From the IMG/VR virus record IMGVR_UViG_2526164634_000012, positions 1 through 11,267 of that record: a DNA stretch of 11,267 bases; one strand, 5' to 3'. Every line of letters begins with the position of its first letter. The stretch's first letter is position 1. The notes under the pieces were generated by a model that did not search any database, was not told where the DNA came from, and worked only from the letters and a program-made list of their open reading frames with translations. The translations under genes and the position numbers were made by a program. Below, in pieces: positions 1-11,267 of this stretch. The DNA is from a virus (Duplodnaviria; Heunggongvirae; Uroviricota; Caudoviricetes).

Positions 1-533
1 TGTGGGCGATTGACTGCGGCGATCTTCCGCTGGCGTTGCGTATTGGTGCGTATGTGGTCCGTCATAACCTCATTATGCCGGATAACTTTGGCCGTACTGC
101 TGCCACAGTGCTGACCGAAGAAATCTGCAACCCGGTACTGACGCAGGCCGGGGCGGATGCCGACGCGGATTTGTCCGCCTTTATCGAACCACTGGACACC
201 CTCCGGAAGATTGTCACCGACCAGGACATGCCGGACGAAGTACGCGCCAAATTATGCAAGGCGTGCGCCTTTGCCCGTCGTGGTCTGACCGATGCAGACA
301 ACATGGCCTTATCACTGAAGCTGCTGCGCGAAGCGATGCACCTGAACCCGAACGCAGGTGTGAAACGCGAGATTGCAACCCTTTCCCGCGCCCTGAAAAA
401 AGCCGATTCCGCAGCCGCATCAGAAGACGCCAGCGCACAGCAGGCGCAGGACGAAAGCAGCAAAAGTAAAAAGACAACGCGGAAGCCTGCAACACGAAAA
501 ACCACCGCGACGCAGAAGGCGAAGCGCGGTTAA
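1..533 (+). CDS. M: Terminase small (endonuclease) subunit, P2 gpM-like; 5'-partial, frame open from window edge
   Basis: Frame is open from position 3 with no stop until TGA at 531-533. Lys/Thr/Ala-rich basic C-terminal tail. Sits immediately upstream of an L-like gene as in P2. Confidence 0.75.
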   Translation, partial: WAIDCGDLPLALRIGAYVVRHNLIMPDNFGRTAATVLTEEICNPVLTQAGADADADLSAFIEPLDTLRKIVTDQDMPDEVRAKLCKACAFARRGLTDADNMALSLKLLREAMHLNPNAGVKREIATLSRALKKADSAAASEDASAQQAQDESSKSKKTTRKPATRKTTATQKAKRG

Positions 534-634
534 CGACTGACCCCGTCAGCGGGCGGCGTGCGCGGTGTTCCGGTTTGACTCCGTGGCCGTTTACACCGCG
601 CACCCACCGCCCGATTTTTTCAGGAGTGAATCCC

Positions 635-1129
635 ATGAGCATGGTTGCCAGAACCAACCCCGGCCCCGCAGAGGACGACATCACCGATACCGATGATGGT
701 GATACCCGTATTTCAGCGGGTGCATTCTGGCCGGATATTGTGCTGCGTGAGCTGCGTCTGGCGGTACGACTGCCGGGCCGTGTGACCACCTCCCGTCTGC
801 TGCATACCGCCACCGGGGCTGTGGCACATGTTACCCGCGAGCTGGAAGCATGGCAGCAGGAACAGCAGGCGGCTGGCCATCAGACGCTGGCCGATGTTCC
901 GGCACCCGTAATTAACGGAGAAAGCGTCAATCTCTGGCACTGGCGCAATGCGGTTTACACCGCCACACGCGCCCTGATTCTGGAGCGTTACCGCGATGCG
1001 GACACAACGGACAAGGGCGACCGCCGGGCGGACGCACTGGATATACAGACATCGGATTTGTGGCGTGATGTGAGCTGGGCCATCTCTGACATTCTGTGCC
1101 GTCCGCGAATCTTTGCGGAGTTGTGCTGA
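635..1129 (+). CDS. L: Head completion/stabilisation protein, P2 gpL-like
   Basis: ATG at 635 preceded by AGGAG (622-626); ORF-track ORF 575..1129 trimmed to this start. About 164 aa, close to P2 L. Stop TGA overlaps the ATG of the next gene by 1 nt. Confidence 0.8.
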   Translation: MSMVARTNPGPAEDDITDTDDGDTRISAGAFWPDIVLRELRLAVRLPGRVTTSRLLHTATGAVAHVTRELEAWQQEQQAAGHQTLADVPAPVINGESVNLWHWRNAVYTATRALILERYRDADTTDKGDRRADALDIQTSDLWRDVSWAISDILCRPRIFAELC

Positions 1130-1329
1130 TGAAAGTAAAGGCACTGGAAGGCGACACCGTGGATTCGCTCTGTTTCCGGTACTACGGCACGACGCAGGGC
1201 GTCACCGAAAAGGTGCTGGATGCCAACCCCGGACTCTGTCAGCAGGTATTTCTGGACGCCGGGCAGGAAGTGGAGATGCCGGAGCCGGAGAAGAAGAAAC
1301 GAGAAATGATTCAGTTGTGGGGGGAGTAG
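1129..1329 (+). CDS. X: Tail protein X (LysM-like), P2 gpX-like
   Basis: 66-aa ORF starting MKVKALEGDTVDSLCFRYYG..., matching the P2 X pattern (..GDTLD.ICVRYYG..NPGL). Start is the internal ATG at 1129 of track ORF 1096..1329. Confidence 0.8.
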   Translation: MKVKALEGDTVDSLCFRYYGTTQGVTEKVLDANPGLCQQVFLDAGQEVEMPEPEKKKREMIQLWGE

Positions 1330-1331
1330 CA

Positions 1332-1640
1332 GTGAGCACCATTCAAACAGGGATCACAGAGCAGGTTATTGCGTGGCTCTTTGACCACCTGCCAACGGTG
1401 TATGCAGTAGGCGCGGCGGTCAGCATTTCCGCGCTGATGAGTCTTTATGACGGACGAACACTGGTTCAGACCGTAACGGGATCGCTGGCGTGCGGCGTTC
1501 TTGCCATGGCCGTGGCCGGGTCGTTGCGCTTCTTCGGTTTTCCTGAAGATGCCGTGACGTTTATCGGCGCACTCAATCGGTTTTATGGGGGGCAGAGAAA
1601 GCACGCGACAAGGTTATTGCGGCCTTTAATCGCAGGGTGA
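1332..1640 (+). CDS. Holin (two predicted TM helices); 3' end uncertain, alternative frame ends at 1657
   Basis: GTG at 1332 preceded by GGGGGAG. Hydrophobic stretches TVYAVGAAVSISALMSL and LVQTVTGSLACGVLAMAVAGSL. Position between X and the endolysin matches P2 Y. Confidence 0.6.
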   Translation: MSTIQTGITEQVIAWLFDHLPTVYAVGAAVSISALMSLYDGRTLVQTVTGSLACGVLAMAVAGSLRFFGFPEDAVTFIGALNRFYGGQRKHATRLLRPLIAG

Positions 1641-1653
1641 AGGAGAAGGACGA

Positions 1654-2045
1654 ATGAGCAACACATTTAAATTCAGCAGCCGGAGCGAAAAGAATTTGCA
1701 GGGCGTAAATCCTGATCTGGTGAAAGTGACCCGACGGGCACTGGAAATCTCGGAAGCGGATTTGGTATCACCGAAGGGTTGCGCAGCCGTTACCGCCAGA
1801 AGCAACTGGTGGCCACGGGTAAGAGCCAGACCATGAACAGCCGCCACCTTACGGGGCATGCCGTGGATGTTGTGGCTTATATCGGCAGCCAGGTGTCATG
1901 GGAATGGTCGCTGTACGAAAAAATCGCAGCAGCATTCAGACAGGCCAGCCGGGAACTGAATATTCCGGTGGAATGGGGCGGCGACTGGAAGACCCTGAAA
2001 GACGGACCGCATTTTCAGTTACCACACGGAGCCTATCCGGCATGA
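1654..2045 (+). pseudogene. Endolysin, peptidase M15 (L-alanyl-D-glutamate / VanY-like) family; frame broken by apparent 1-nt deletion in T-run at 1761-1763
   Basis: Track ORFs 1654..1836 and 1779..2045 join into one ~131-aa protein if GATTTGG is read as GATTTTGG, giving ...EADFGITEGLRSRYRQKQLVATGKSQTMNSRHLTGHAVDV... with Zn-binding H-x6-D and downstream GPHFQ histidine. AAGGAG RBS lies upstream of ATG 1654. Confidence 0.7.
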
Positions 2046-2449
2046 AGCTCTGGCCCACGCTGGGTGTCGCTTTCCTTCTGATTGCCGCATGGGGAACATC
2101 CATACGTCTGTCGTGGTCGCTGGGCCGGGAGAACGCCAGAAACGAAGCGCAGGCCAGCACCCTGAAAAGTACCGTCGACACCCTGAATATCATCAGCACC
2201 GGGGTACAGGATATGCAGCAGGTGCTGGCGCAACTCCGCGTGGAAAATCAGCAACGCAATCAGGACGGAGAAGCCATACGTGAACAGCTACGCAACGATA
2301 TTGCAAAAGATGAATGCGCCCACGCTTTGCCTGATGCTCGTTTTACTGACAGGTTGCGCAGGCACGCAGAACGCGCCACGGCCAGCGCCGTCAGTCCGGC
2401 TTATACCGCAGACGCTGACCATACCGGTAACGCCTCCCCCCTTCCCTGA
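2042..2449 (+). CDS. lysB: i-spanin (Rz-like), P2 LysB-like
   Basis: ATG 2042 overlaps the endolysin stop (ATGA). N-terminal TM segment LWPTLGVAFLLIAAWG followed by a coiled-coil-like Q/E/R-rich region. Contains the embedded out-of-frame lipoprotein gene. Confidence 0.7.
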   Translation: MKLWPTLGVAFLLIAAWGTSIRLSWSLGRENARNEAQASTLKSTVDTLNIISTGVQDMQQVLAQLRVENQQRNQDGEAIREQLRNDIAKDECAHALPDARFTDRLRRHAERATASAVSPAYTADADHTGNASPLP

Positions 2450-2600
2450 CACTCCCACATGGGGAAATCTCGGTATATGGGGCGACCGCCTTCTGGATGC
2501 ACTGGAAACCTGTAACGCGGATAAACGGGCCATTGAATTACTGGAACAGCGCAGACTGCAACGACTGAACAACGAGGACAACAACCATGCTGAAAACTGA
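2310..2600 (+). CDS. lysC: o-spanin (Rz1-like outer-membrane lipoprotein), P2 LysC-like, embedded in and extending past lysB
   Basis: Lipobox LLTGC after a hydrophobic stretch; Pro-rich mature region. The 96-aa length from ATG 2310 equals P2 LysC; an alternative GTG start at 2280 has a better RBS (GGAGAAG). Confidence 0.65.
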   Translation: MNAPTLCLMLVLLTGCAGTQNAPRPAPSVRLIPQTLTIPVTPPPFPDTPTWGNLGIWGDRLLDALETCNADKRAIELLEQRRLQRLNNEDNNHAEN

Positions 2601-3054
2601 TTCCCTGCGTGAAGCCATGACCCGTTCATGCCGATGGTGTCAGGCCAACCCGGAAAAATTCACCATTTTCGTGGAGAGCGGCAACATTGAAACGACCGGA
2701 GAAACACCCTCGTTTGTTTACCGCTATCAGATGGTGATGTTTGTCATGGATTACGCCGGGGAGCTGGACGACCTCACGCTGCCGCTGCTGGCGTGGTTAT
2801 CCGAAAATCAGCCACAGTTGTTGCTCAACCCTGAGCGTAATCAGGACATCAAATTTTCCGCCGTTATCAATGACGATGACAGCGCCGATCTCCTGTTTAC
2901 GCTCCCCCTGCGGGAACGCGTTCGCATCACGCGCAGCAGTCAGGGCACACCGCAGGCAGAACACCTGCCGGAGCCAAAACCCCGCCTGCCATCTTCCGAA
3001 GGCGACTGGTCGCATGTATTCCAGGATGTGACGTGGGGTGAAAGCGATGGATAA
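2587..3054 (+). CDS. R: Tail completion protein R, P2 gpR-like
   Basis: 155 aa, the same length as P2 R. Starts MLKTDSLREAM... and contains LLAWLSENQP, matching the recalled P2 R pattern. Confidence 0.8.
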   Translation: MLKTDSLREAMTRSCRWCQANPEKFTIFVESGNIETTGETPSFVYRYQMVMFVMDYAGELDDLTLPLLAWLSENQPQLLLNPERNQDIKFSAVINDDDSADLLFTLPLRERVRITRSSQGTPQAEHLPEPKPRLPSSEGDWSHVFQDVTWGESDG

Positions 3055-3683
3055 GGCATTCACCCGCGTGGATGAAACCTTTGAGGCCATCCGCGACAGC
3101 CTGAATCAGCAGGCCATCAATAACATCGCCAGAAAGCTGGCACAGGATTTACGCCGCGCCCAGCAGGCGCGCATCCGGTCACAGAAAGCGCCGGACGGGA
3201 CCGCATGGACACCACGCAGACGCCGCGTAACCCGGATACAGGAGCGCATTCGCTTTATCTGGAATAACGAAGCACGCACGCTGAAAAACTGGCATCACGA
3301 CACGGGGAAATACGGGCGAACCATTACCGGGTGGGATGAGGATAAAAACAATATCCGCACGTTTTACCGGGATGACATCGACCGTTTTTCTGGAAATACG
3401 CACCCGGCGCATCAACCAGGACAGCACAAAGCGCGTCCCCATGTTCGTAAAACTGCGCACCGCCCGCTACCTGAAAGCCCGTGCAGATGCTTCCGGTGTG
3501 ACGGTGGGTTACAGCGGCGTGGCCGCACGTATTGCACGCGTTCATCAGTTCGGTGAGCGCGATCAGGTTGCGCCGGGCATTTTCACCGATTACCCGGTAC
3601 GTGAGCTGCTGGGTATCAGCCAGGCAGATGAGCGCCTGATTTATAACACGGTGCTGGGCCGGATTGCGGAGGCTGTACGGTGA
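3047..3683 (+). pseudogene. S: Tail completion / virion morphogenesis protein S, P2 gpS-like; frame switches at TTTTT run 3385-3389
   Basis: Track ORF 3038..3556 is protein-like only up to ...FYRDDIDRF, then becomes Arg/His/Pro/Cys-rich. Track ORF 3336..3683 is protein-like only from LEIRTRR onward (...IARVHQFGERD...YPVRELLG...). Removing one T joins them. Start could be GTG 3038 or ATG 3047. Confidence 0.55.
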
Positions 3684-4260
3684 GCGCAGAACTCATGCGA
3701 CTGCTGAGCAACATCATCCGTACCGGGATCATCTCTGAAGTTGATGAGGAATCCTGGTGCGTGCGCGTTCGCAGCGGCGAACTGGAAACAGGCTGGCTGC
3801 GCTGGAACACCACGCGCGCGGGAGCCTTCAATGTGTGGCTGCCGCCATCACCAGGCGAACAGGTGGTAATTGCCTGCATTGGCGGCAACCCGGAAACCGC
3901 CATGATAATTGGCAGCCTGTGGAGTGATGCCAGTCCGGCCCCCGGCAAAAGCCTGAAAGAAATCGTGATCAGCGCGCCGGATGGCGCGGTGTTCCGCTAC
4001 GACACGGACGCAGGCGCACTGAGCGCCAGCGGCATGAAAACAGCCACCCTGCAGGCATCCGTCAGCGTGACACTGGATACGCCCGTCGTGGAATGCACAG
4101 ACCTTCTGAGAACAGCGACGCTTGACGTCACAAAAGGGGGAAGATGAGCGGCAATATCACGCACAGCGGCGGCGATTTCACCTCAAACGGCATCACAGTG
4201 CATACGCATAAGCACGGTGGCGTTAAAGGTGGCAGCGATTCGACAGGAGGCCCGCAGTGA
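3680..4260 (+). pseudogene. V: Baseplate spike/assembly protein V, P2 gpV-like; frame broken near 4136-4143
   Basis: Track ORF 3680..4147 ends ...LDVTKGGR*. A short frame from 4144 encodes MSGNITHSGGDFTSNGITVHTHKHGG..., the His-rich apex motif of gpV. A 1-nt insertion in GGGGGAAG would give ...TKGGKMSGNITHSGG... as one ~193-aa protein. GTG start overlaps the S stop (GTGA). Confidence 0.7.
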
Positions 4261-4607
4261 CAACCCGCTACACAGGAATGAATCCGGACGGGACGGGAAA
4301 CCTGAACGATATGGAGCACCTGAAACAGTCAGTCAGGGACATCCTGATCACCCCGCTGGCAAGCCGGGTTATGCGACGGGAATATGGCAGCCTTGTGCCT
4401 GATTTGATTGACGAACCCATGAATAACACAACTCGTCTGCAATGCATGAGTGCTGCCGTGATTGCGCTGACACGATGGGAACCCCGCATTGCCCTGGACG
4501 CCATCGACGTTGTCTGGAAAGCGGGAGGCCGCGCCGGGGTGACGCTGTCGGGCACTGTCATGCAGACCATGCAGAATGTTGAGTTAACCATCACGCTGAA
4601 GGAGTAA
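4257..4607 (+). CDS. W: Baseplate wedge protein W (gp25/GPW family), P2 gpW-like
   Basis: 116 aa from GTG 4257, overlapping the V stop; position and size match P2 W (115 aa). An alternative ATG start lies at 4278. Confidence 0.75.
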   Translation: MTTRYTGMNPDGTGNLNDMEHLKQSVRDILITPLASRVMRREYGSLVPDLIDEPMNNTTRLQCMSAAVIALTRWEPRIALDAIDVVWKAGGRAGVTLSGTVMQTMQNVELTITLKE

Positions 4608-4610
4608 ATC

Positions 4611-5507
4611 ATGCCCGCCGTTGACCTTTCCCAGTTACCGGAACCCGCCATCATCGCGGAGCCTGACTTTGAGGCAATTCTGGCTGACACAAAGGCCATG
4701 ATGATTGCGGCTTATCCCGCCGAACAGCGTGAAGCCGTCTCCGCCGCGCTGGAGCTGGAATCGGAACCCCTGAACGTTATCGCCCAGACAACAGCGTTTC
4801 GTGAAATGCTGTTACGCCAGCGGGTCAATGAGGGGGCACGCGCCTGCATGTTAAGCCACAGCGCCGGGACAGACCTGGACAACCTCGCGGGCAATATGAA
4901 CACAAAGCGCCTGACCATCACTCCGGCAACGGATACCACCGACGCAGTGATGGAAAGTGACACCTCGCTGAGACTGCGGGCACAGCGGGCGTACGATGGC
5001 CTGAGTGTTGCTGGCCCGTCAGGTGCATACGAGTATTTTGCACGCAGCGCCAGCGGTCTGGTGCGTGATGCGCGGGCCATCAGCCCGTCTCCGGCCTGTG
5101 TGACGGTTTCCATTCTGTCCACTGAAGGCGACGGCACAGCAACGGAGGCGTTGCTTAATACCGTTCGCGCCGTTCTGAATGCAGAGGATACCCGTCCGGT
5201 GGCCGACCGCCTGACCGTACAGAGCGCCAGAATCGTGACATGGCGGCTGAATGCAAAACTGTACTTTTACCCCGGCCCGGAATCCGAACCTATTCTGGCC
5301 GCGGCTGAATCGTCGTTCAGGAAGTGGCTGGCTGAGCAGGGGCTTATCGGTCAGGACGTGGCGTTGTCCGCCATTGCTGCCGCACTGCATGTGCACGGTG
5401 TGCAACGCGTGGAGATAATCGAACCCACACAGAATATGGCCATCAGCGACATACAGGCGGCGCGCTGTGAGTCATTCACCATCAGCGAAGGTGGGCGCAA
5501 TGAGTAA
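4611..5507 (+). CDS. J: Baseplate protein J, P2 gpJ-like
   Basis: 298 aa; begins MPAVDLSQLPEP..., and contains ...RLTITPA...GLSVAG...SPSPACVT...RPVADRVTVQSA..., matching the recalled P2 J pattern. Confidence 0.85.
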   Translation: MPAVDLSQLPEPAIIAEPDFEAILADTKAMMIAAYPAEQREAVSAALELESEPLNVIAQTTAFREMLLRQRVNEGARACMLSHSAGTDLDNLAGNMNTKRLTITPATDTTDAVMESDTSLRLRAQRAYDGLSVAGPSGAYEYFARSASGLVRDARAISPSPACVTVSILSTEGDGTATEALLNTVRAVLNAEDTRPVADRLTVQSARIVTWRLNAKLYFYPGPESEPILAAAESSFRKWLAEQGLIGQDVALSAIAAALHVHGVQRVEIIEPTQNMAISDIQAARCESFTISEGGRNE

Positions 5508-6108
5508 TTCGTTGTTACCACCATCAGCCAGCAATTTCATGCGTTGTGCCGAAGCCGTCGGAACACGCATTACAGACATTCCGGTAGACCTCAACACGCT
5601 GTGGTCGCCGGACACCTGCCCGGTGCATCTGCTGCCTTATCTCGCCTGGGCGTTTTCCGTTGACCGCTGGGATCGCAACTGGCCGGAAGAGACAAAGCGA
5701 CAGGTGATTCGTGATGCATGGCTGATACACCGACACAAAGGGACCATCAGCGCACTGCGAAGAGCCGTGGAGCCTCTCGGTTACCTGATTGAAGTAAAGG
5801 AGTGGTGGCAACTCAACGAGGAGCCGGGAACATTTCGCATTGTTGTCGGAGTACTTGATCAGGGCATCACCGATGAAATGTATCAGGAACTTGAGCGCCT
5901 TATTGCGGATGCAAAACCAGTAAGTCGCCATCTGACGGGGCTGGCGATCAGCCTGAGTGTGAACGGAAAGATTTTCGTTGGTACGGGATGCTATCACGGC
6001 GATGCCCTGACGGTTTATCCCTACACCCCGGAGTCCATTATTGTCGAAGGGGACTATTTCCCTGCCCCGGCCATTCATTTAATTGATAATCTGAGAGTAA
6101 ACGCATGA
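5500..6108 (+). CDS. I: Baseplate/tail protein I, P2 gpI-like
   Basis: ATG 5500 after GGTGGG, overlapping the J stop. Contains WSPDTCPVHLLPYLAWAFSVDRWD and ...RLIADAKP.SRHL..., matching recalled P2 I. Start chosen inside track ORF 5467..6108. Confidence 0.8.
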   Translation: MSNSLLPPSASNFMRCAEAVGTRITDIPVDLNTLWSPDTCPVHLLPYLAWAFSVDRWDRNWPEETKRQVIRDAWLIHRHKGTISALRRAVEPLGYLIEVKEWWQLNEEPGTFRIVVGVLDQGITDEMYQELERLIADAKPVSRHLTGLAISLSVNGKIFVGTGCYHGDALTVYPYTPESIIVEGDYFPAPAIHLIDNLRVNA

Positions 6109-8137
6109 CAGTGAAATACTACGCCATTCTGACTAATCAGGGCGCGGCACGACTGGCTAACGCGACGATGCTCGGCAGTAAGCTGAATCTGACGCAAATG
6201 GCCGTTGGTGATGCAAATGGTGTGTTACCAACACCAGACCCTGCACAAACAAAACTGATTAACCAGAAACGCATTGCACCGCTGAATCTTCTGAGTGTTG
6301 ACCCTAACAATCAGAGCCAGATTATTGCGGAGCAAATCATCCCTGAAAACGAGGGAGGATTCTGGATCCGTGAGATTGGTCTTTATGATGATGAAGGTGT
6401 ACTCATTGCGGTGGCAAACTGCCCGGAAACGTACAAACCGCAGTTGCAGGAAGGCAGTGGTCGTACCCAGACTATCCGCATGATTCTGGTTGTCACGAAC
6501 ACCGAAGCCATCACGCTGAAAATCGACCCGTCTGTGGTTCTGGCAACCCGCAAATATGTGGATGATAAAATCTCAGAGCACGAACAGTCACGACATCACC
6601 CGGACGCCTCGCTGACCGCAAAAGGTTTTACTCAGTTAAGCAGTGCAATTAACAGTGAATCAGAAACACTGGCCGCAACACCGAAAGCAGTTAAGGCTGC
6701 ATATGACCTGGCTGACGGGAAATATACCGCCCAGAACGCCACCACAACACAAAAAGGGATTGTTCAGCTCAGTAGCGCCACGAACAGCACGTCTGAAACG
6801 CTGGCAGCAACACCAAAAGCTGTTAAGGCGGTAATGGATGAAACGAACAAGAAAGCACCATTAAACAGCCCGGCACTGACCGGAACGCCAACAACACCAA
6901 CAGCGCCACAGGGGACTAATAGTACCCAGATCGCAAGCACGGCTTTCGTTATGGCCGCGATTGCCGCACTTGTAGATTCGTCACCTGATGCACTAAACAC
7001 GCTGAGCGAACTGGCTGCGGCGCTGGCAATGACCCGAATTTTGCGACCACCATGACTAACGCGCTTGCGGGTAAGCAACCGAAAGATGCCACCCTGACGG
7101 CGCTGGCCGGGCTTGTTACTGCGGCAGACAGGTTTCCGTATTTTACGGGGAATGACGTTGCCAGTTTGGCAACCCTGACAGAAGTCGGGCGGGATATTCT
7201 TGCGAAATCGACCGTTGCCGCTGTTATCGAATACCTCGGTTTACAGGAAACGGTAAACAAGGCTGGTAACGCCGTTCAGCGTTCCGGCGATAAAATGACC
7301 GGAGAACTGAAAATTGGAACGATGAATGCGCTGCGAATTTTTAATGATGCCTTCGGTCTTATTTTCCGCCGTTCAGAAGAGTCCCTTCATTTCATCCCTA
7401 CGGCTGAAGGACAAGGCGAAAACGGTGATATCGGCCCATTAAGGCCATTCGCTATAAATCTAAGAACAGGTGCTATATATGTCAGCCACGGGGCCAAAAT
7501 TGAAGGAGGTCTAGCTATTGGTGCTACTGATAACGCACTGGGTGAAAACTCCATTGTTCTGGGAGATAACGACACCGGATTTAGGCAAGATGGAGATGGT
7601 ATTATTAGCTTCTATTCAAATGGTTCGCGCATCGGACATATTGATGGGTTAGGATTACATCTTTATAAAGATATTGAATCTAATTGCAGCAATTTTAGAT
7701 TAAAAAGTAATTACCGCCACCACATTACATTCACCAACGAAGACGGAAGTATTCGTATGTTTTTGTGGAAAGATAACGGTGGTGATGGTGTTCATATTAA
7801 TAACGGTTCAGATGGTGGTGGTGATTTCATTTTTAAAACAGATGGGGGATTTGCGCTGGGAAGTGGTGCGCAAGTTGCGTCTAGTGGCGATATTTATGGT
7901 TCAGTGTGGGGAAACAACTGGTTAAGCACATGGCTGCATAATCATGTCGTTCGGGATATTCGTCTTGGCAGCATTGAATATAAAAACGTATGGCGCGACT
8001 ACGGCTTTGGCGATGCGTCAGGTTATGTTTTAACAGCCGCAATTAACGGCAATGCGGATGATCTTGTCGACACTGTTGCCAGAAGGCCAATTCAGAAATT
8101 GATTGGGGGAATATGGTACAACGTGGGGAGTGTTTAA
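6105..8137 (+). pseudogene. H: Tail fibre protein H, P2 gpH-like; frame broken by apparent 1-nt deletion in G-run at 7025-7026
   Basis: Track ORFs 6105..7055 and 7052..8137 are the N and C parts of one gene. Reading CTGGCAAT as CTGGGCAAT restores ...ELAAALGNDPNFATTMTNALAGKQPKDATLTALAGL..., a junction I recall from P2 H. C-terminus ...[17 protein letters not shown] resembles the P2 H end. Confidence 0.8.
6624..6836 (+). repeat. Two copies of the phage tail-fibre repeat motif (QLSSA.NS.SETLAATPKAVKA) within H
   Basis: GFTQLSSAINSESETLAATPKAVKAA at about 6624-6704 and GIVQLSSATNSTSETLAATPKAVKAV at about 6756-6836, repeated at protein level with diverged DNA. Confidence 0.55.
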
Positions 8138-8138
8138 G

Positions 8139-8666
8139 ATGATGCACTTAAAAAATATTACTGCTGGCAACCCTAAAACAAAAGAACAATACCAGCTAAC
8201 TGAAAAAGCGGGCGTGGTATGGCTCTTTTGCGAAGATGGCAAAAACTGGTATGAGGAACAAAAGAATTTTCAGCCAGACACCATAAAAATTGCTTACGAT
8301 GAGAACAACATCATCGTTGCTGTCAGTAAAGACGTTTCAACTATTAATCCTGAAGGGCTAAGCATAGTTGAAGTTCCTGATATTACGGCAAATCGTCGCG
8401 CAGACAATAACGGAAAATGGATGTTTCTGTATGGTAAAGTAGTAAAGAGGGAATATACAGAACAGGAACTGCAACAACAGGCCGAATCACAAAAGGCCGC
8501 GTTGCTTTCTGAAGCAGAAAGCGTTATTCAGCCACTGGAACGCGCTGTCAGGCTGAACATGGCAACAGATGAGGAGCGTAGCCGACTGGAAGCATGGGAG
8601 CGCTACAGTGTTCTGGTCAGCCGTGTGGATACGGCAAATCCTGAATGGCCACAAAAGCCTGAATAA
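8139..8666 (+). CDS. G: Tail fibre assembly chaperone, P2 gpG-like
   Basis: ATG 8139 after GGGGAG, 2 nt after the H stop. 175 aa; N-terminus [21 protein letters not shown] and C-terminus ...[34 protein letters not shown] match recalled P2 G closely. Confidence 0.85.
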
Positions 8667-8671
8667 AAATT

Positions 8672-8700
8672 AAGGCCCGATAGCGGGCCTTGTCTCATTC
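8672..8700 (+). terminator. Putative rho-independent terminator after the V-W-J-I-H-G operon
   Basis: Perfect 8-bp stem AAGGCCCG / CGGGCCTT (8672-8679 and 8684-8691) with a 4-nt loop, followed by a T-rich but interrupted tail TTGTCTCATT. Confidence 0.4.
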
Positions 8701-8725
8701 GTAAGCGCATCATTTAAACCGTCTT
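8701..8725 (+). repeat. Putative left terminal inverted repeat of the IS66-family element (exact length not determinable without the right end)
   Basis: GTAAGCGCATCATTTAAACCGTC... begins 10 bp after the terminator hairpin; the right IR is outside the window so pairing cannot be verified. Confidence 0.4.
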
Positions 8726-8785
8726 TCGCCTCCCTTTCCTGTTTCCGATACTAATGTCCATTTTCGCAGTAAAAGGACATTTAAG

Positions 8786-9436
8786 ATGAATGCACGAAAA
8801 GCGGTACTGGCAGATAATCCAGAATTGATCCTGCGTGTGCTACAGCTGAGATTTGACGAGTCACTGTCGTACCCGCGCATTTCTGCGCAGACTGGTGTCA
8901 GCAAAACCGCCATTTTTTCTCTGGTGAGGCGATTTCACCAGGTATTCACTGACTGGCCTCTTTCCGGTGAATATTCCTGCGGGCAACTGGCCCGGGCTCT
9001 TTTCCCGGGGCGATACCCTTCAGCCCCGACCGTGACTCAGCCTGTGAAAGCAGAGAAACCCCGCCGGAACCGATTTTCACCGGAGTTTAAATGGAGACTG
9101 GTTCAGCAAACTCTTTTACCCGGTGCCTGTGTCGCACAAATAGCTCGAGAGAATGGAATTAACGATAACCTGCTCTTTAACTGGCGGCATCTCTGGCGTA
9201 ACGGTGGCCTGCAACCGCCCGGCGAACATGAAACATCGCTACTTCCCGTGACGTTAACTCCGGAGCCGGATAATAAAATCCCGGCACCAGTGCAGATACC
9301 TGAACAGATAAATACACTGCCAGACAGTCTGTGCTGCGAGCTGGTTCTGCCGGCCGGAACTCTCAGGCTGAAAGGTGAACTGACACCGGCGTTATTACAG
9401 ACACTTATCCGCGAAATGAAAGGGAGCAGCCACTGA
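8786..9436 (+). CDS. tnpA: IS66-family accessory protein TnpA-like, with an N-terminal extension of about 90 aa (HTH-like)
   Basis: C-terminal half ...RRNRFSPEFKWRLVQQTLLPGACVAQIARENGINDNLLFNWR... fits the IS66 TnpA pattern. AAGGA RBS before ATG 8786. Stop overlaps the tnpB start (TGATG). Confidence 0.7.
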   Translation: MNARKAVLADNPELILRVLQLRFDESLSYPRISAQTGVSKTAIFSLVRRFHQVFTDWPLSGEYSCGQLARALFPGRYPSAPTVTQPVKAEKPRRNRFSPEFKWRLVQQTLLPGACVAQIARENGINDNLLFNWRHLWRNGGLQPPGEHETSLLPVTLTPEPDNKIPAPVQIPEQINTLPDSLCCELVLPAGTLRLKGELTPALLQTLIREMKGSSH

Positions 9437-9782
9437 TGATATCTCTCCCTGCCGGTTCGCGTATCTGGCTGGTCGCCGGTATCACCGATATGCGAAATGG
9501 CTTTAACGGCCTGGCCTCAAAAGTTCAGAACGTCCTGAAGGATGACCCGTTCTCCGGGCATCTGTTCATCTTCCGCGGACGCCGGGTGACCAGATAAAAG
9601 TGCTGTGGGCTGACAGTGACGGACTGTGCCTCTTCACCAAACGCCTGGAGCGGGGCCGCTTCGTCTGGCCGGTCACCCGCGATGGAAAGGTTCACCTTAC
9701 TCCGGCTCAGTTGTCCATGCTTCTCGAAGGCATCGACTGGAAGCACCCGAAACGAACGGAACGCGCTGGCATCCGCATATAA
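9436..9782 (+). pseudogene. tnpB: IS66-family TnpB (orf2); frame broken by apparent 1-nt deletion in G-run at 9584-9586
   Basis: MISLPAGSRIWLVAGITDMRNGFNGLASKVQNVLKDDPFSGHLFIFRGRR then stops at 9595-9597. The shifted frame (track ORF 9600..9782) continues ...VLWADSDGLCLFTKRLERGRFVWP...LTPAQLSMLLEGIDWKHP. Reading CGCCGGGTGAC as CGCCGGGGTGAC joins them into a ~116-aa protein. Confidence 0.75.
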
Positions 9783-9801
9783 CCCGTTGTAAAGTGAGGA
9801 T

Positions 9802-11267
9802 ATGGACACCTCACTTGCTCATGAGAATGCCCGCCTGCGGGCACTGTTGCAGACGCAACAGGACACCATCCGCCAGATGGCGAAATACAACCGCCTGCTC
9901 TCACAGCGGGTGGCGGCTTATGCTTCCGAAATCAACCGGCTGAAGGCGCTGGTTGCGAAACTGCAGCGCATGCAGTTCGGTAAAAGCTCAGAAAAACTTC
10001 GCGCTAAAACCGAACGGCAGATACAGGAAGCACAGGAGCGAATCAGCGCACTTCAGGAAGAAATGGCGGAAACGCTGGGTGAGCAATATGACCCGGTACT
10101 GCCATCCGCCCTGCGCCAGTCTTCAGCCCGTAAACCGTTACCGGCCTCACTTCCCCGTGAAACCCGGGTCATCCGGCCGGAAGAGGAATGCTGCCCGGCC
10201 TGTGGTGGTGACCTCAGTCCTCTGGGGTGTGATGTGTCAGAGCAACTGGAGCTTATCAGCAGCGCCTTTAAGGTTATCGAAACACAACGTCCGAAACTGG
10301 CCTGTTGTCGGTGCGACCATATCGTGCAGGCAACAGTACCTTCAAAACCCATTGCACGCAGTTATGCCGGAGCGGGGCTTCTGGCCCATGTTGTTACCGG
10401 GAAATATGCAGACCATCTGCCGTTATACCGCCAGTCAGAAATATACCGTCGCCAGGGCGTGGAGCTGAGCCGCGCCACGCTGGGGCGCTGGACAGGTGCC
10501 GTTGCTGAACTGCTGGAGCCGCTGTATGACGTCCTGCGCCAGTATGTGCTGATGCCCGGTAAAGTCCATGCTGATGATATCCCCGTCCCGGTCCAGGAGC
10601 CGGGCAGCGGTAAAACCCGGACCGCCCGGCTGTGGGTCTACGTCCGTGATGACCGTAACGCCGGTTCGGAAATGCCCCCGGCGGTCTGGTTCGCGTACTC
10701 ACCGGACCGGAAAGGTATCCATCCACAAAATCATCTGGCCGGTTACAGCGGTGTGCTTCAGGCCGATGCTTACGGTGGTTACCGGGTGTTATACGAATCC
10801 GGCAGAATAACGGAAGCCGCGTGTATGGCTCATGCCCGGAGAAAAATCCACGATGTGCATGCAAGAGTGCCCACCGACATCACCACGGAAGCCCTGCAGC
10901 GTATCGGTGAACTGTATGCCATAGAGGCAGAAGTCCGGGGATGTACAGCAGAACAGCGTCTGGCGGCAAGAAAAGCCAGAGCTGCGCCACTGATGCAGTC
11001 ACTGTATGACTGGATACAGACTCAGATGAAAACACTGTCGCGTCACTCGGATACGGCAAAAGCGTTCGCATACCTGCTGAAACAGTGGGATGGCCTGAAC
11101 GTGTACTGCAGTAATGGCTGGGTGGAAATCGACAACAACATCGCAGAGAACGCCTTACGGGGAGTGGCCGTAGGCCGGAAAAACTGGCTGTTCGCGGGTT
11201 CCGACAGCGGTGGCGAACATGCGGCGGTGTTGTACTCGCTGATCGGCACATGCCGTCTGAACAATGT
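9802..11267 (+). CDS. tnpC: IS66-family transposase TnpC (DDE), 3'-partial, open to window end
   Basis: My own translation from ATG 9802 shows no stop to the window end; this ORF is absent from the supplied track, presumably because it has no stop. N-terminal leucine-rich coiled coil, Cys pairs CPACGG...CCRC, and motifs ...[12 protein letters not shown]..., ...HADD.PVPV..., ...LQADAY.GY..., ...[25 protein letters not shown]... typical of IS66 transposases. Confidence 0.85.

What the first reader, a model, noticed from the sequence alone, without database searches (positions are those of the whole stretch)
9580..9602. IS66 tnpB interrupted by 1-nt deletion
tnpB stops at 9595-9597, yet the next frame continues with ...VLWADSDGLCLFTKRLERGRFVWP...GIDWKHP, a strongly conserved IS66 TnpB segment. 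Reading CGCCGGGTGAC as CGCCGGGGTGAC repairs it. A frame break in a mobile element normally kept intact is the strongest hint that the indels are assembly artefacts.
Basis: partly seen in the sequence, partly recalled or inferred. Interest (0 to 1): 0.5.

Follow-up and report, generated by a model that had tools for sequence, protein, structure and literature searches.

The report
Likely sequencing-error frameshift in IS679 tnpB
A well-known E. coli jumping gene (IS679) looks broken by one missing G, but the same short draft contig has six other private one-base errors of this kind. The break is therefore most likely a base-calling error in the draft assembly and not biology.

Summary
tnpB (9436-9597) stops at a TAA at 9595-9597. 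The next frame carries the rest of the protein up to 9782, and restoring GGG (9584-9586) to GGGG gives the 115-aa IS66-family TnpB.

The window is the whole draft contig AIHD01000041.1. It holds a P2-like prophage (1-8700) with the left 2567 bp of IS679 inserted at 8701. The IS differs from an intact IS679 in a complete genome by one synonymous substitution and this deletion.

None of 891 matching places in complete E. coli genomes has GGG. Neither does any of 6 IMG/VR contigs, 21 metagenome contigs or 1 GTDB contig.

In the prophage the window has 6 private 1-nt indels and only 2 private substitutions. Three complete genomes together have 1 private indel and 152 private substitutions (Fisher p = 9e-9). 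Five of those six indels lie in homopolymer runs, each splits a gene, and the two truncated products I looked up occur on no other contig.

The same G4-to-G3 change recurs in 7 unrelated contigs. Four of them carry further 1-nt indels in the IS.

Best reading (about 0.85): a homopolymer consensus error in a draft assembly. The rival is a real, recent slippage mutation in one of about 15 copies. Reads are needed for proof. This is an ordinary finding of low interest.

The parts
1..8700 (+). P2-like prophage late region, from the 3' part of gpM (terminase small subunit) to a tail-fibre assembly gene. It contains six private 1-nt indels (1572, 1587, 1761, 3385, 4141, 7025) that split the holin, the M15 endolysin, gpS, gpV and the tail fibre gene.
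   Evidence: 98.3% identical to the E. coli E300082 prophage and 99.7% to FDAARGOS_1059 over 1-7150. The split gene calls appear (L016).
8701..8725 (+). Left end of IS679, beginning GTAAGCGCATC. The prophage/IS junction lies at 8700/8701.
   Evidence: Homology to the prophage stops at 8700 and homology to IS679 starts at 8701. In FDAARGOS_1059 the full element is 2704 bp (L011:1501-4204) and ends in GCTTAC.
8786..9436 (+). tnpA (216 aa, intact). Its TGA stop overlaps the tnpB ATG by one base.
   Evidence: Pfam HTH_Tnp_1 at 7.5e-17. Annotated as the IS66-like accessory protein TnpA in matching complete genomes.
9436..9597 (+). tnpB 5' fragment: 50 native residues plus VTR, then TAA at 9595-9597.
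   Evidence: PF05717 profile positions 2-45.
9584..9586 (+). GGG run where every compared relative has GGGG. This is the site of the 1-nt deletion.
9587..9782 (+). tnpB 3' part, read in the -1 frame (residues 51-115 of the intact protein), with its stop at 9780-9782.
   Evidence: PF05717 profile positions 49-100.
9802..11267 (+). tnpC (DDE transposase). The first 488 of 523 codons are present; the gene is cut by the contig end.
   Evidence: Pfam LZ_Tnp_IS66, zf-IS66 and DDE_Tnp_IS66 (1e-103). Annotated as an IS66-like element IS679 family transposase in records that are 99.9% identical.

Best explanation
The window is a complete 11.3-kb contig of a draft E. coli assembly (AIHD01000041.1). It shows a P2-like prophage with a copy of IS679 inserted between the two convergent tail-fibre assembly genes. 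IS679 is a known IS66-family element with tnpA, tnpB and tnpC. The missing G in the tnpB G4 run is most likely a consensus base-calling error at a homopolymer, of the kind made by pyrosequencing-type or poorly polished assemblies. It is not a property of the DNA. In the cell this copy most likely encodes the normal 115-aa TnpB. Shown here: the deletion itself, the identity of the element, the fact that the deletion is private to this contig among high-quality genomes, and the excess of private homopolymer indels on the contig. Inferred: that these indels arose in sequencing or assembly and not in the bacterium.
For: (1) Apart from the deletion, the IS part (8701-11267) differs from an intact IS679 in a complete genome by one synonymous substitution at 9474. 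(2) GGG occurs at 0 of 891 places in 448 complete E. coli genomes, 0 of 6 IMG/VR contigs, and 0 of 22 GTDB or metagenome contigs. (3) A four-way alignment of the prophage gives the window 6 private 1-nt indels and 2 private substitutions. Three complete genomes pooled give 1 private indel (in an intergenic T-run) and 152 private substitutions (Fisher p = 8.8e-9). (4) Six of the 7 private indels change a run of 3 or more bases, while only 16% of window bases lie in such runs (p = 1e-4). Insertions and deletions are mixed, and one private substitution (1757) lies 4 nt from an indel, which suggests a local low-quality patch. (5) Every indel splits a gene. The truncated gpH and gpV products occur on no other contig in the gene index. 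(6) The same G4-to-G3 change is seen on 7 other contigs, all in different IS66 variants (94-96% identical). Four of these carry additional 1-nt indels in the IS. One is AFDT01, whose accession falls inside a batch (AFDQ to AFEA) described as 454 Titanium assembled with Celera (PMC3491183). (7) The contig ends inside tnpC and inside gpM, which is typical of a draft assembly breaking at repeats.
Against: No reads or quality values were available, so the error is not demonstrated. I could not confirm the sequencing platform of this assembly, because the genome announcement is not in the library. Real slippage mutations also prefer homopolymers. Two Logan contigs (L015, L018) carry the same deletion with no other indel in the IS, so the deletion may exist in nature. 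A prophage interrupted by an IS might be under relaxed selection.
Confidence: 0.85

Rival explanations
1. The deletion is a real, recent replication-slippage mutation in this one IS679 copy. It truncates TnpB after residue 50. The copy can no longer transpose on its own but can still be mobilised in trans by the other IS679 copies in the lineage.
For: G4 runs are natural slippage sites. The exact 53-aa truncated product is on record from 7 other contigs, and two of them (L015, L018) have no other indel in the IS. Related complete genomes carry 15-16 matching places per chromosome, so losing one copy would cost the host nothing. From my own knowledge, Han et al. 2001 (J Bacteriol 183:4296) reported that tnpA, tnpB and tnpC are all needed for IS679 transposition; I could not read that paper here.
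Against: This reading does not explain the six other private frameshifts on the same 11-kb contig, where only 3 private substitutions are found. Seven indels among 10 private changes has probability 9e-6 if indels make up 10% of changes, and 0.01 even at 30%. The deletion is absent from all 891 places in complete genomes.
Confidence: 0.13
2. The frame break is functional. Either a programmed -1 ribosomal frameshift or transcriptional slippage at the G run produces full-length TnpB from two frames, or the G run acts as a phase-variable switch on transposition.
For: The downstream frame is -1 relative to the upstream one, and a 52-nt overlap (9546-9597) is open in both frames. The same change recurs in several IS66 variants.
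Against: The overlap contains no X XXY YYZ slippery heptamer; the codons read CCG TTC TCC GGG CAT CTG TTC ATC TTC CGC GGA CGC CGG GTG ACC AGA TAA. All 920 other copies examined are in a single frame with GGGG, so the split arrangement is not conserved. A run of 3-4 G is far shorter than known slippage or phase-variation tracts (my own knowledge). Rfam finds nothing in the window.
Confidence: 0.02

Closest known systems
IS679 (IS66 family; first described on plasmid pB171 of EPEC strain B171, Han et al. 2001, cited from my own knowledge and from the reference lists seen)
   Same: It is 99.9% identical over 2567 bp to elements that PGAP annotates as IS679 family in complete genomes. It has the same tnpA-tnpB-tnpC order, the same tnpA stop/tnpB start overlap, and the same left end beginning GTAAGCG.
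   Different: One G is missing in tnpB, and there is one synonymous C/T difference at 9474. The right 137 bp, including the end of tnpC and the right inverted repeat, are absent because the contig ends.
Homopolymer-length consensus errors in pyrosequencing-type or under-polished draft assemblies
   Same: The changes are single-base, mostly in runs of 3-7 identical bases, and mix insertions with deletions. They are private to one assembly and far outnumber private substitutions. The same site is affected in other assemblies that have multiple such indels.
   Different: The platform and read support for this assembly could not be checked. One of the seven indels (+C at 1572) is not in a homopolymer run.
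Programmed -1 frameshifting in IS1 and IS3 family transposase genes
   Same: Two consecutive overlapping reading frames in an IS, with the second in the -1 phase.
   Different: There is no slippery heptamer. The split is not conserved in any relative, and the affected gene is an accessory gene that is a single ORF everywhere else.

Membership tests
IS66 family / IS679 | Three consecutive same-strand ORFs: tnpA (HTH), tnpB (PF05717) and tnpC (DDE_Tnp_IS66 with zinc finger and leucine zipper) | tested here: met
   Pfam hits. The order is 8786-9436, 9436-9782 and 9802 onward. Matching annotation is seen.
IS66 family / IS679 | The tnpB start codon overlaps the tnpA stop codon (TGATG), with tnpB in the -1 phase | tested here: met
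   Read directly from the sequence: TGA at 9434-9436 and ATG at 9436-9438.
IS66 family / IS679 | Near-identity at DNA level to IS679 | tested here: met
   99.9% over 2567 bp to elements that PGAP labels IS679 family. The ISfinder reference sequence itself was not available for comparison.
IS66 family / IS679 | Terminal inverted repeats beginning GTAAGCG at both ends | tested here: inconclusive
   The left end is present at 8701. The right end lies beyond the contig end.
IS66 family / IS679 | 8-bp target-site duplication flanking the element | not testable with these tools
   The right junction is not in the window, and the same insertion was found in no other collection.
IS66 family / IS679 | Intact 115-aa tnpB ORF (needed for an autonomous copy) | tested here: not met
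   The ORF is split at 9584-9597 in the deposited sequence. The split is probably an artefact.
Sequencing or assembly homopolymer error | The indel changes the length of a homopolymer run | tested here: met
   G4 becomes G3. Six of the 7 private indels are in runs of 3 or more.
Sequencing or assembly homopolymer error | The indel is private to the assembly and absent from close relatives | tested here: met
Sequencing or assembly homopolymer error | Excess of indels over substitutions compared with high-quality genomes | tested here: met
   The window has 6 indels to 2 substitutions and the three complete genomes have 1 to 152, Fisher p = 8.8e-9.
Sequencing or assembly homopolymer error | Reads disagree with the consensus, or coverage/quality is low at the site | not testable with these tools
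   No reads or quality values are accessible.
Programmed -1 ribosomal frameshift | Slippery heptamer X XXY YYZ in the overlap of the two frames | tested here: not met
   None is present in 9546-9597 (read).
Programmed -1 ribosomal frameshift | The two-frame arrangement is conserved in relatives | tested here: not met
   All 920 other copies examined are in one frame.

The most novel reading that the evidence does not exclude
The G4 tract in tnpB of IS66-family elements could be a genuine, recurrent slippage hotspot that switches individual copies off and possibly back on, acting as a crude copy-by-copy brake on transposition. The window and the seven other contigs with the identical deletion would then be natural examples.
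Probability: 0.03. Interest if true: 0.3.

Novelty: not a real feature. Interest (0 to 1): 0.05.

Why it matters
This matters only for data quality. The contig, and probably the whole draft assembly, carries about one homopolymer indel per 1.6 kb. Its apparent pseudogenes (the prophage lysis, baseplate and tail-fibre genes, and IS679 tnpB) should therefore not be read as gene decay. If the deletion were real, it would inactivate one copy among about 15 of a well-known IS, and the other copies could supply TnpB in trans. That would also be unremarkable.

Tried and rejected
- **Same prophage/IS junction elsewhere.** I looked for another copy of this insertion so that the same IS copy could be compared. 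None was found in complete E. coli genomes, IMG/VR, GTDB representatives or JGI metagenomes.
- **Sequencing platform and strain.** I searched the papers for AIHD/GCA_000250275 and found no hits. The DECA genome announcement is not held. My recollection that AIHD belongs to the DECA set (probably a DEC12 O111 strain) from the Institute for Genome Sciences is unverified.
- **IS679 functional paper.** I tried to read Han et al. 2001 and it is not held. The statement that all three ORFs are required rests on my own knowledge.
- **Programmed frameshift.** Considered and rejected: there is no slippery site and no conservation of the split.
- **Real prophage decay.** Considered as an explanation for all the indels and rejected as the main one. 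The ratio of private indels to private substitutions (7:3) is improbable even under generous indel rates.
- **Rfam scan.** A scan of the window found nothing.
- **A technical hitch.** Locus L002 was not visible to the script, so I refetched the stretch as L003.

Full report
**What the window is.** An exact-protein look-up of the truncated TnpB shows that the window is the entire 11,267-bp contig AIHD01000041.1 of the draft E. coli assembly GCA_000250275.2 (locus L016). Bases 1-8700 are the late region of a P2-like prophage, running from the 3' part of gpM to a tail-fibre assembly gene. This region is 98.3% identical to the prophage of strain E300082, and over 1-7150 it differs from that of FDAARGOS_1059 by only 23 substitutions. 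Bases 7224-8700 equal the invertible tail-fibre segment of FDAARGOS_1059 and O111:H2 strain 12A, in the opposite orientation (99.87%, no gaps).

At 8701 the sequence switches exactly to the left end (GTAAGCGCATC...) of an IS66-family element. In complete genomes that are 99.9% identical, this element is annotated as IS679. The full element is 2704 bp in FDAARGOS_1059, and the window holds its first 2567 bp. The contig ends inside tnpC.

**Check of the observation.**
- The tnpB frame from ATG 9436 ends ...FRGRRVTR at TAA 9595-9597.
- The -1 frame carries ...GDQIKVLWADSDGLCLFTKRLERGRFVWP...GIDWKHPKRTERAGIRI up to 9782.
- Alignment with an intact tnpB shows a single gap, one G missing from the run at 9584-9586.
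- Pfam PF05717 is covered at profile positions 2-45 by the first fragment, 49-100 by the second, and 2-100 of 101 by the repaired protein.
- tnpA (8786-9436) and the visible 488 codons of tnpC are intact. They carry the expected HTH, leucine-zipper, zinc-finger and DDE_Tnp_IS66 domains.

**How unusual the GGG is.**
- An 81-nt query centred on the site finds 891 places in 448 complete E. coli genomes, and none is 100% identical. All carry the extra G.
- All 6 IMG/VR contigs with the flanking 20- and 22-mers have GGGG.
- So do the single GTDB-representative hit and all 21 metagenome contigs.
- Apart from the deletion, the IS part of the window differs from the FDAARGOS_1059 IS679 by one base, at 9474 (GTC against GTT, Val13, synonymous).

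**The context that decides the interpretation.**
- Compared with three complete genomes that carry the same prophage, the window has six further single-base indels:
  - +C at 1572
  - G5 to G6 at 1587
  - T4 to T3 at 1761
  - T4 to T5 at 3385
  - A3 to A2 at 4141
  - G3 to G2 at 7025
- Each one splits a gene. The gene calls on the contig show the holin shortened to 102 aa, the M15 endolysin split into 60 + 78 aa, gpS into 169 + 54, gpV into 155 + 38, and the tail fibre into 316 + 361.
- In a four-way alignment the window has 6 private indels and only 2 private substitutions. The three complete genomes together have 1 private indel, in an intergenic T-run, and 152 private substitutions. The Fisher exact p is 8.8e-9, or 1.8e-9 when the IS part is included.
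- Seven indels among ten private changes has probability 9e-6 if indels make up 10% of mutations, and 0.01 even at 30%.
- Six of the seven indels lie in runs of 3 or more bases, which cover only 16% of the window (p = 1e-4).
- One of the two private substitutions (1757) lies 4 nt from the indel at 1761.
- The truncated gpH and gpV products exist on no other contig in the 153-billion-gene index.

This is the signature of homopolymer consensus errors in one assembly. It is not the signature of gene decay.

**Recurrence of the same deletion.** The exact 53-aa truncated protein is on record from seven other contigs. All of them are different IS66-family variants, 94-96% identical to IS679, and they sit in unrelated contexts, so the G4-to-G3 change arose independently each time. 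Four of the seven (L012, L013, L014, L017) carry two to five more indels in the IS, nearly all of one base and mostly in short runs, and they have split tnpA or tnpC genes. One of these, AFDT01 (E. coli 3030-1; name), has an accession inside the series AFDQ to AFEA. A paper from the Institute for Genome Sciences describes genomes in that series as 454 Titanium reads assembled with Celera v6.0 (PMC3491183). That the series is a single batch is my inference. Two Logan contigs (L015, L018) and one short metagenome contig (L019, whose only other indel is an in-frame 3-nt deletion) have no other frameshifting indel, so the deletion may be genuine in a few cases.

**Mechanism and consequence.** Most likely (about 0.85) there is nothing to explain biologically. 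The DNA has GGGG, and this IS679 copy encodes normal TnpA, TnpB and TnpC.

If the deletion is real (about 0.13), TnpB ends after residue 50. From my own knowledge, Han et al. 2001 showed that all three ORFs are needed for IS679 transposition; that paper could not be read here. The copy would then be non-autonomous, but the other copies could complement it. Related complete genomes hold 15-16 matching places per chromosome.

A programmed frameshift or a phase-variable switch (about 0.02) is contradicted in three ways. There is no slippery heptamer in the 52-nt two-frame overlap. All other copies examined are in a single frame. The run is also very short.

**Comparison with what is known.** The element is IS679, a described member of the IS66 family. 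The gene order, the tnpA/tnpB overlap, the domains, the left end and the DNA identity were all tested and met. The right inverted repeat and the 8-bp target duplication cannot be tested, because the contig ends before the right end of the element. The insertion site, between the two convergent tail-fibre assembly genes of the prophage's invertible segment, was found nowhere else. That is ordinary for an active IS.

**Limits.** No reads or quality values were available. The platform and strain of the AIHD assembly could not be confirmed from the library. My recollection that it belongs to the DECA collection (probably a DEC12 O111 strain) is unverified, although the best matches are O111-type EPEC genomes.

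**Verdict.** The frame break is most probably not a real feature, and interest is low.

Noticed in passing
window 1572, 1587, 1761, 3385, 4141, 7025: Six further private single-base indels split the prophage holin, M15 endolysin, gpS, gpV and tail-fibre genes. Five of them are in homopolymer runs. All are absent from three complete genomes that carry the same prophage.
   Followed up: yes
window 8700/8701 (and 7224-8700): IS679 is inserted between the two convergent tail-fibre assembly genes, in the middle of the prophage's invertible tail-fibre segment. In the window that segment is in the opposite orientation to FDAARGOS_1059 and strain 12A. The junction was found in no other collection.
   Followed up: yes
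window 1 and 11267: The window is a whole contig. It begins inside gpM and ends inside tnpC, as expected when a draft assembly breaks at repeated prophage and IS sequence. Other IS copies of the same genome therefore cannot be compared.
   Followed up: partly
L012-L019 (other assemblies): The identical G4-to-G3 deletion in tnpB occurs on seven other contigs, in different IS66 variants. Four have more 1-nt indels in the IS. Logan contigs L015 (SRR32380404) and L018 (SRR5441566) have none, so the deletion may be real there.
   Followed up: partly
window 9474: A synonymous C (GTC, Val13 of TnpB) where the compared IS679 copies in complete genomes have T. It is the only substitution in the IS part. 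It may be a real copy-specific SNP or another error.
   Followed up: partly
window 1757: One of only two private substitutions in the prophage lies 4 nt from the private deletion at 1761. This suggests a local low-quality patch in the consensus.
   Followed up: no
L023 (NZ_SSXV01000059.1, 'Thauera sp. 2A1', 3095 bp, coverage 1.68): A very low-coverage contig in a Thauera draft genome carries an exact 43-nt match to the E. coli-type IS66 tnpB. It is probably contamination and not a Thauera element.
   Followed up: no
window 615: An intergenic T-run between gpM and gpL is T6 in the window, E300082 and strain 12A, but T7 in FDAARGOS_1059. It is the only indel among the complete genomes.
   Followed up: partly
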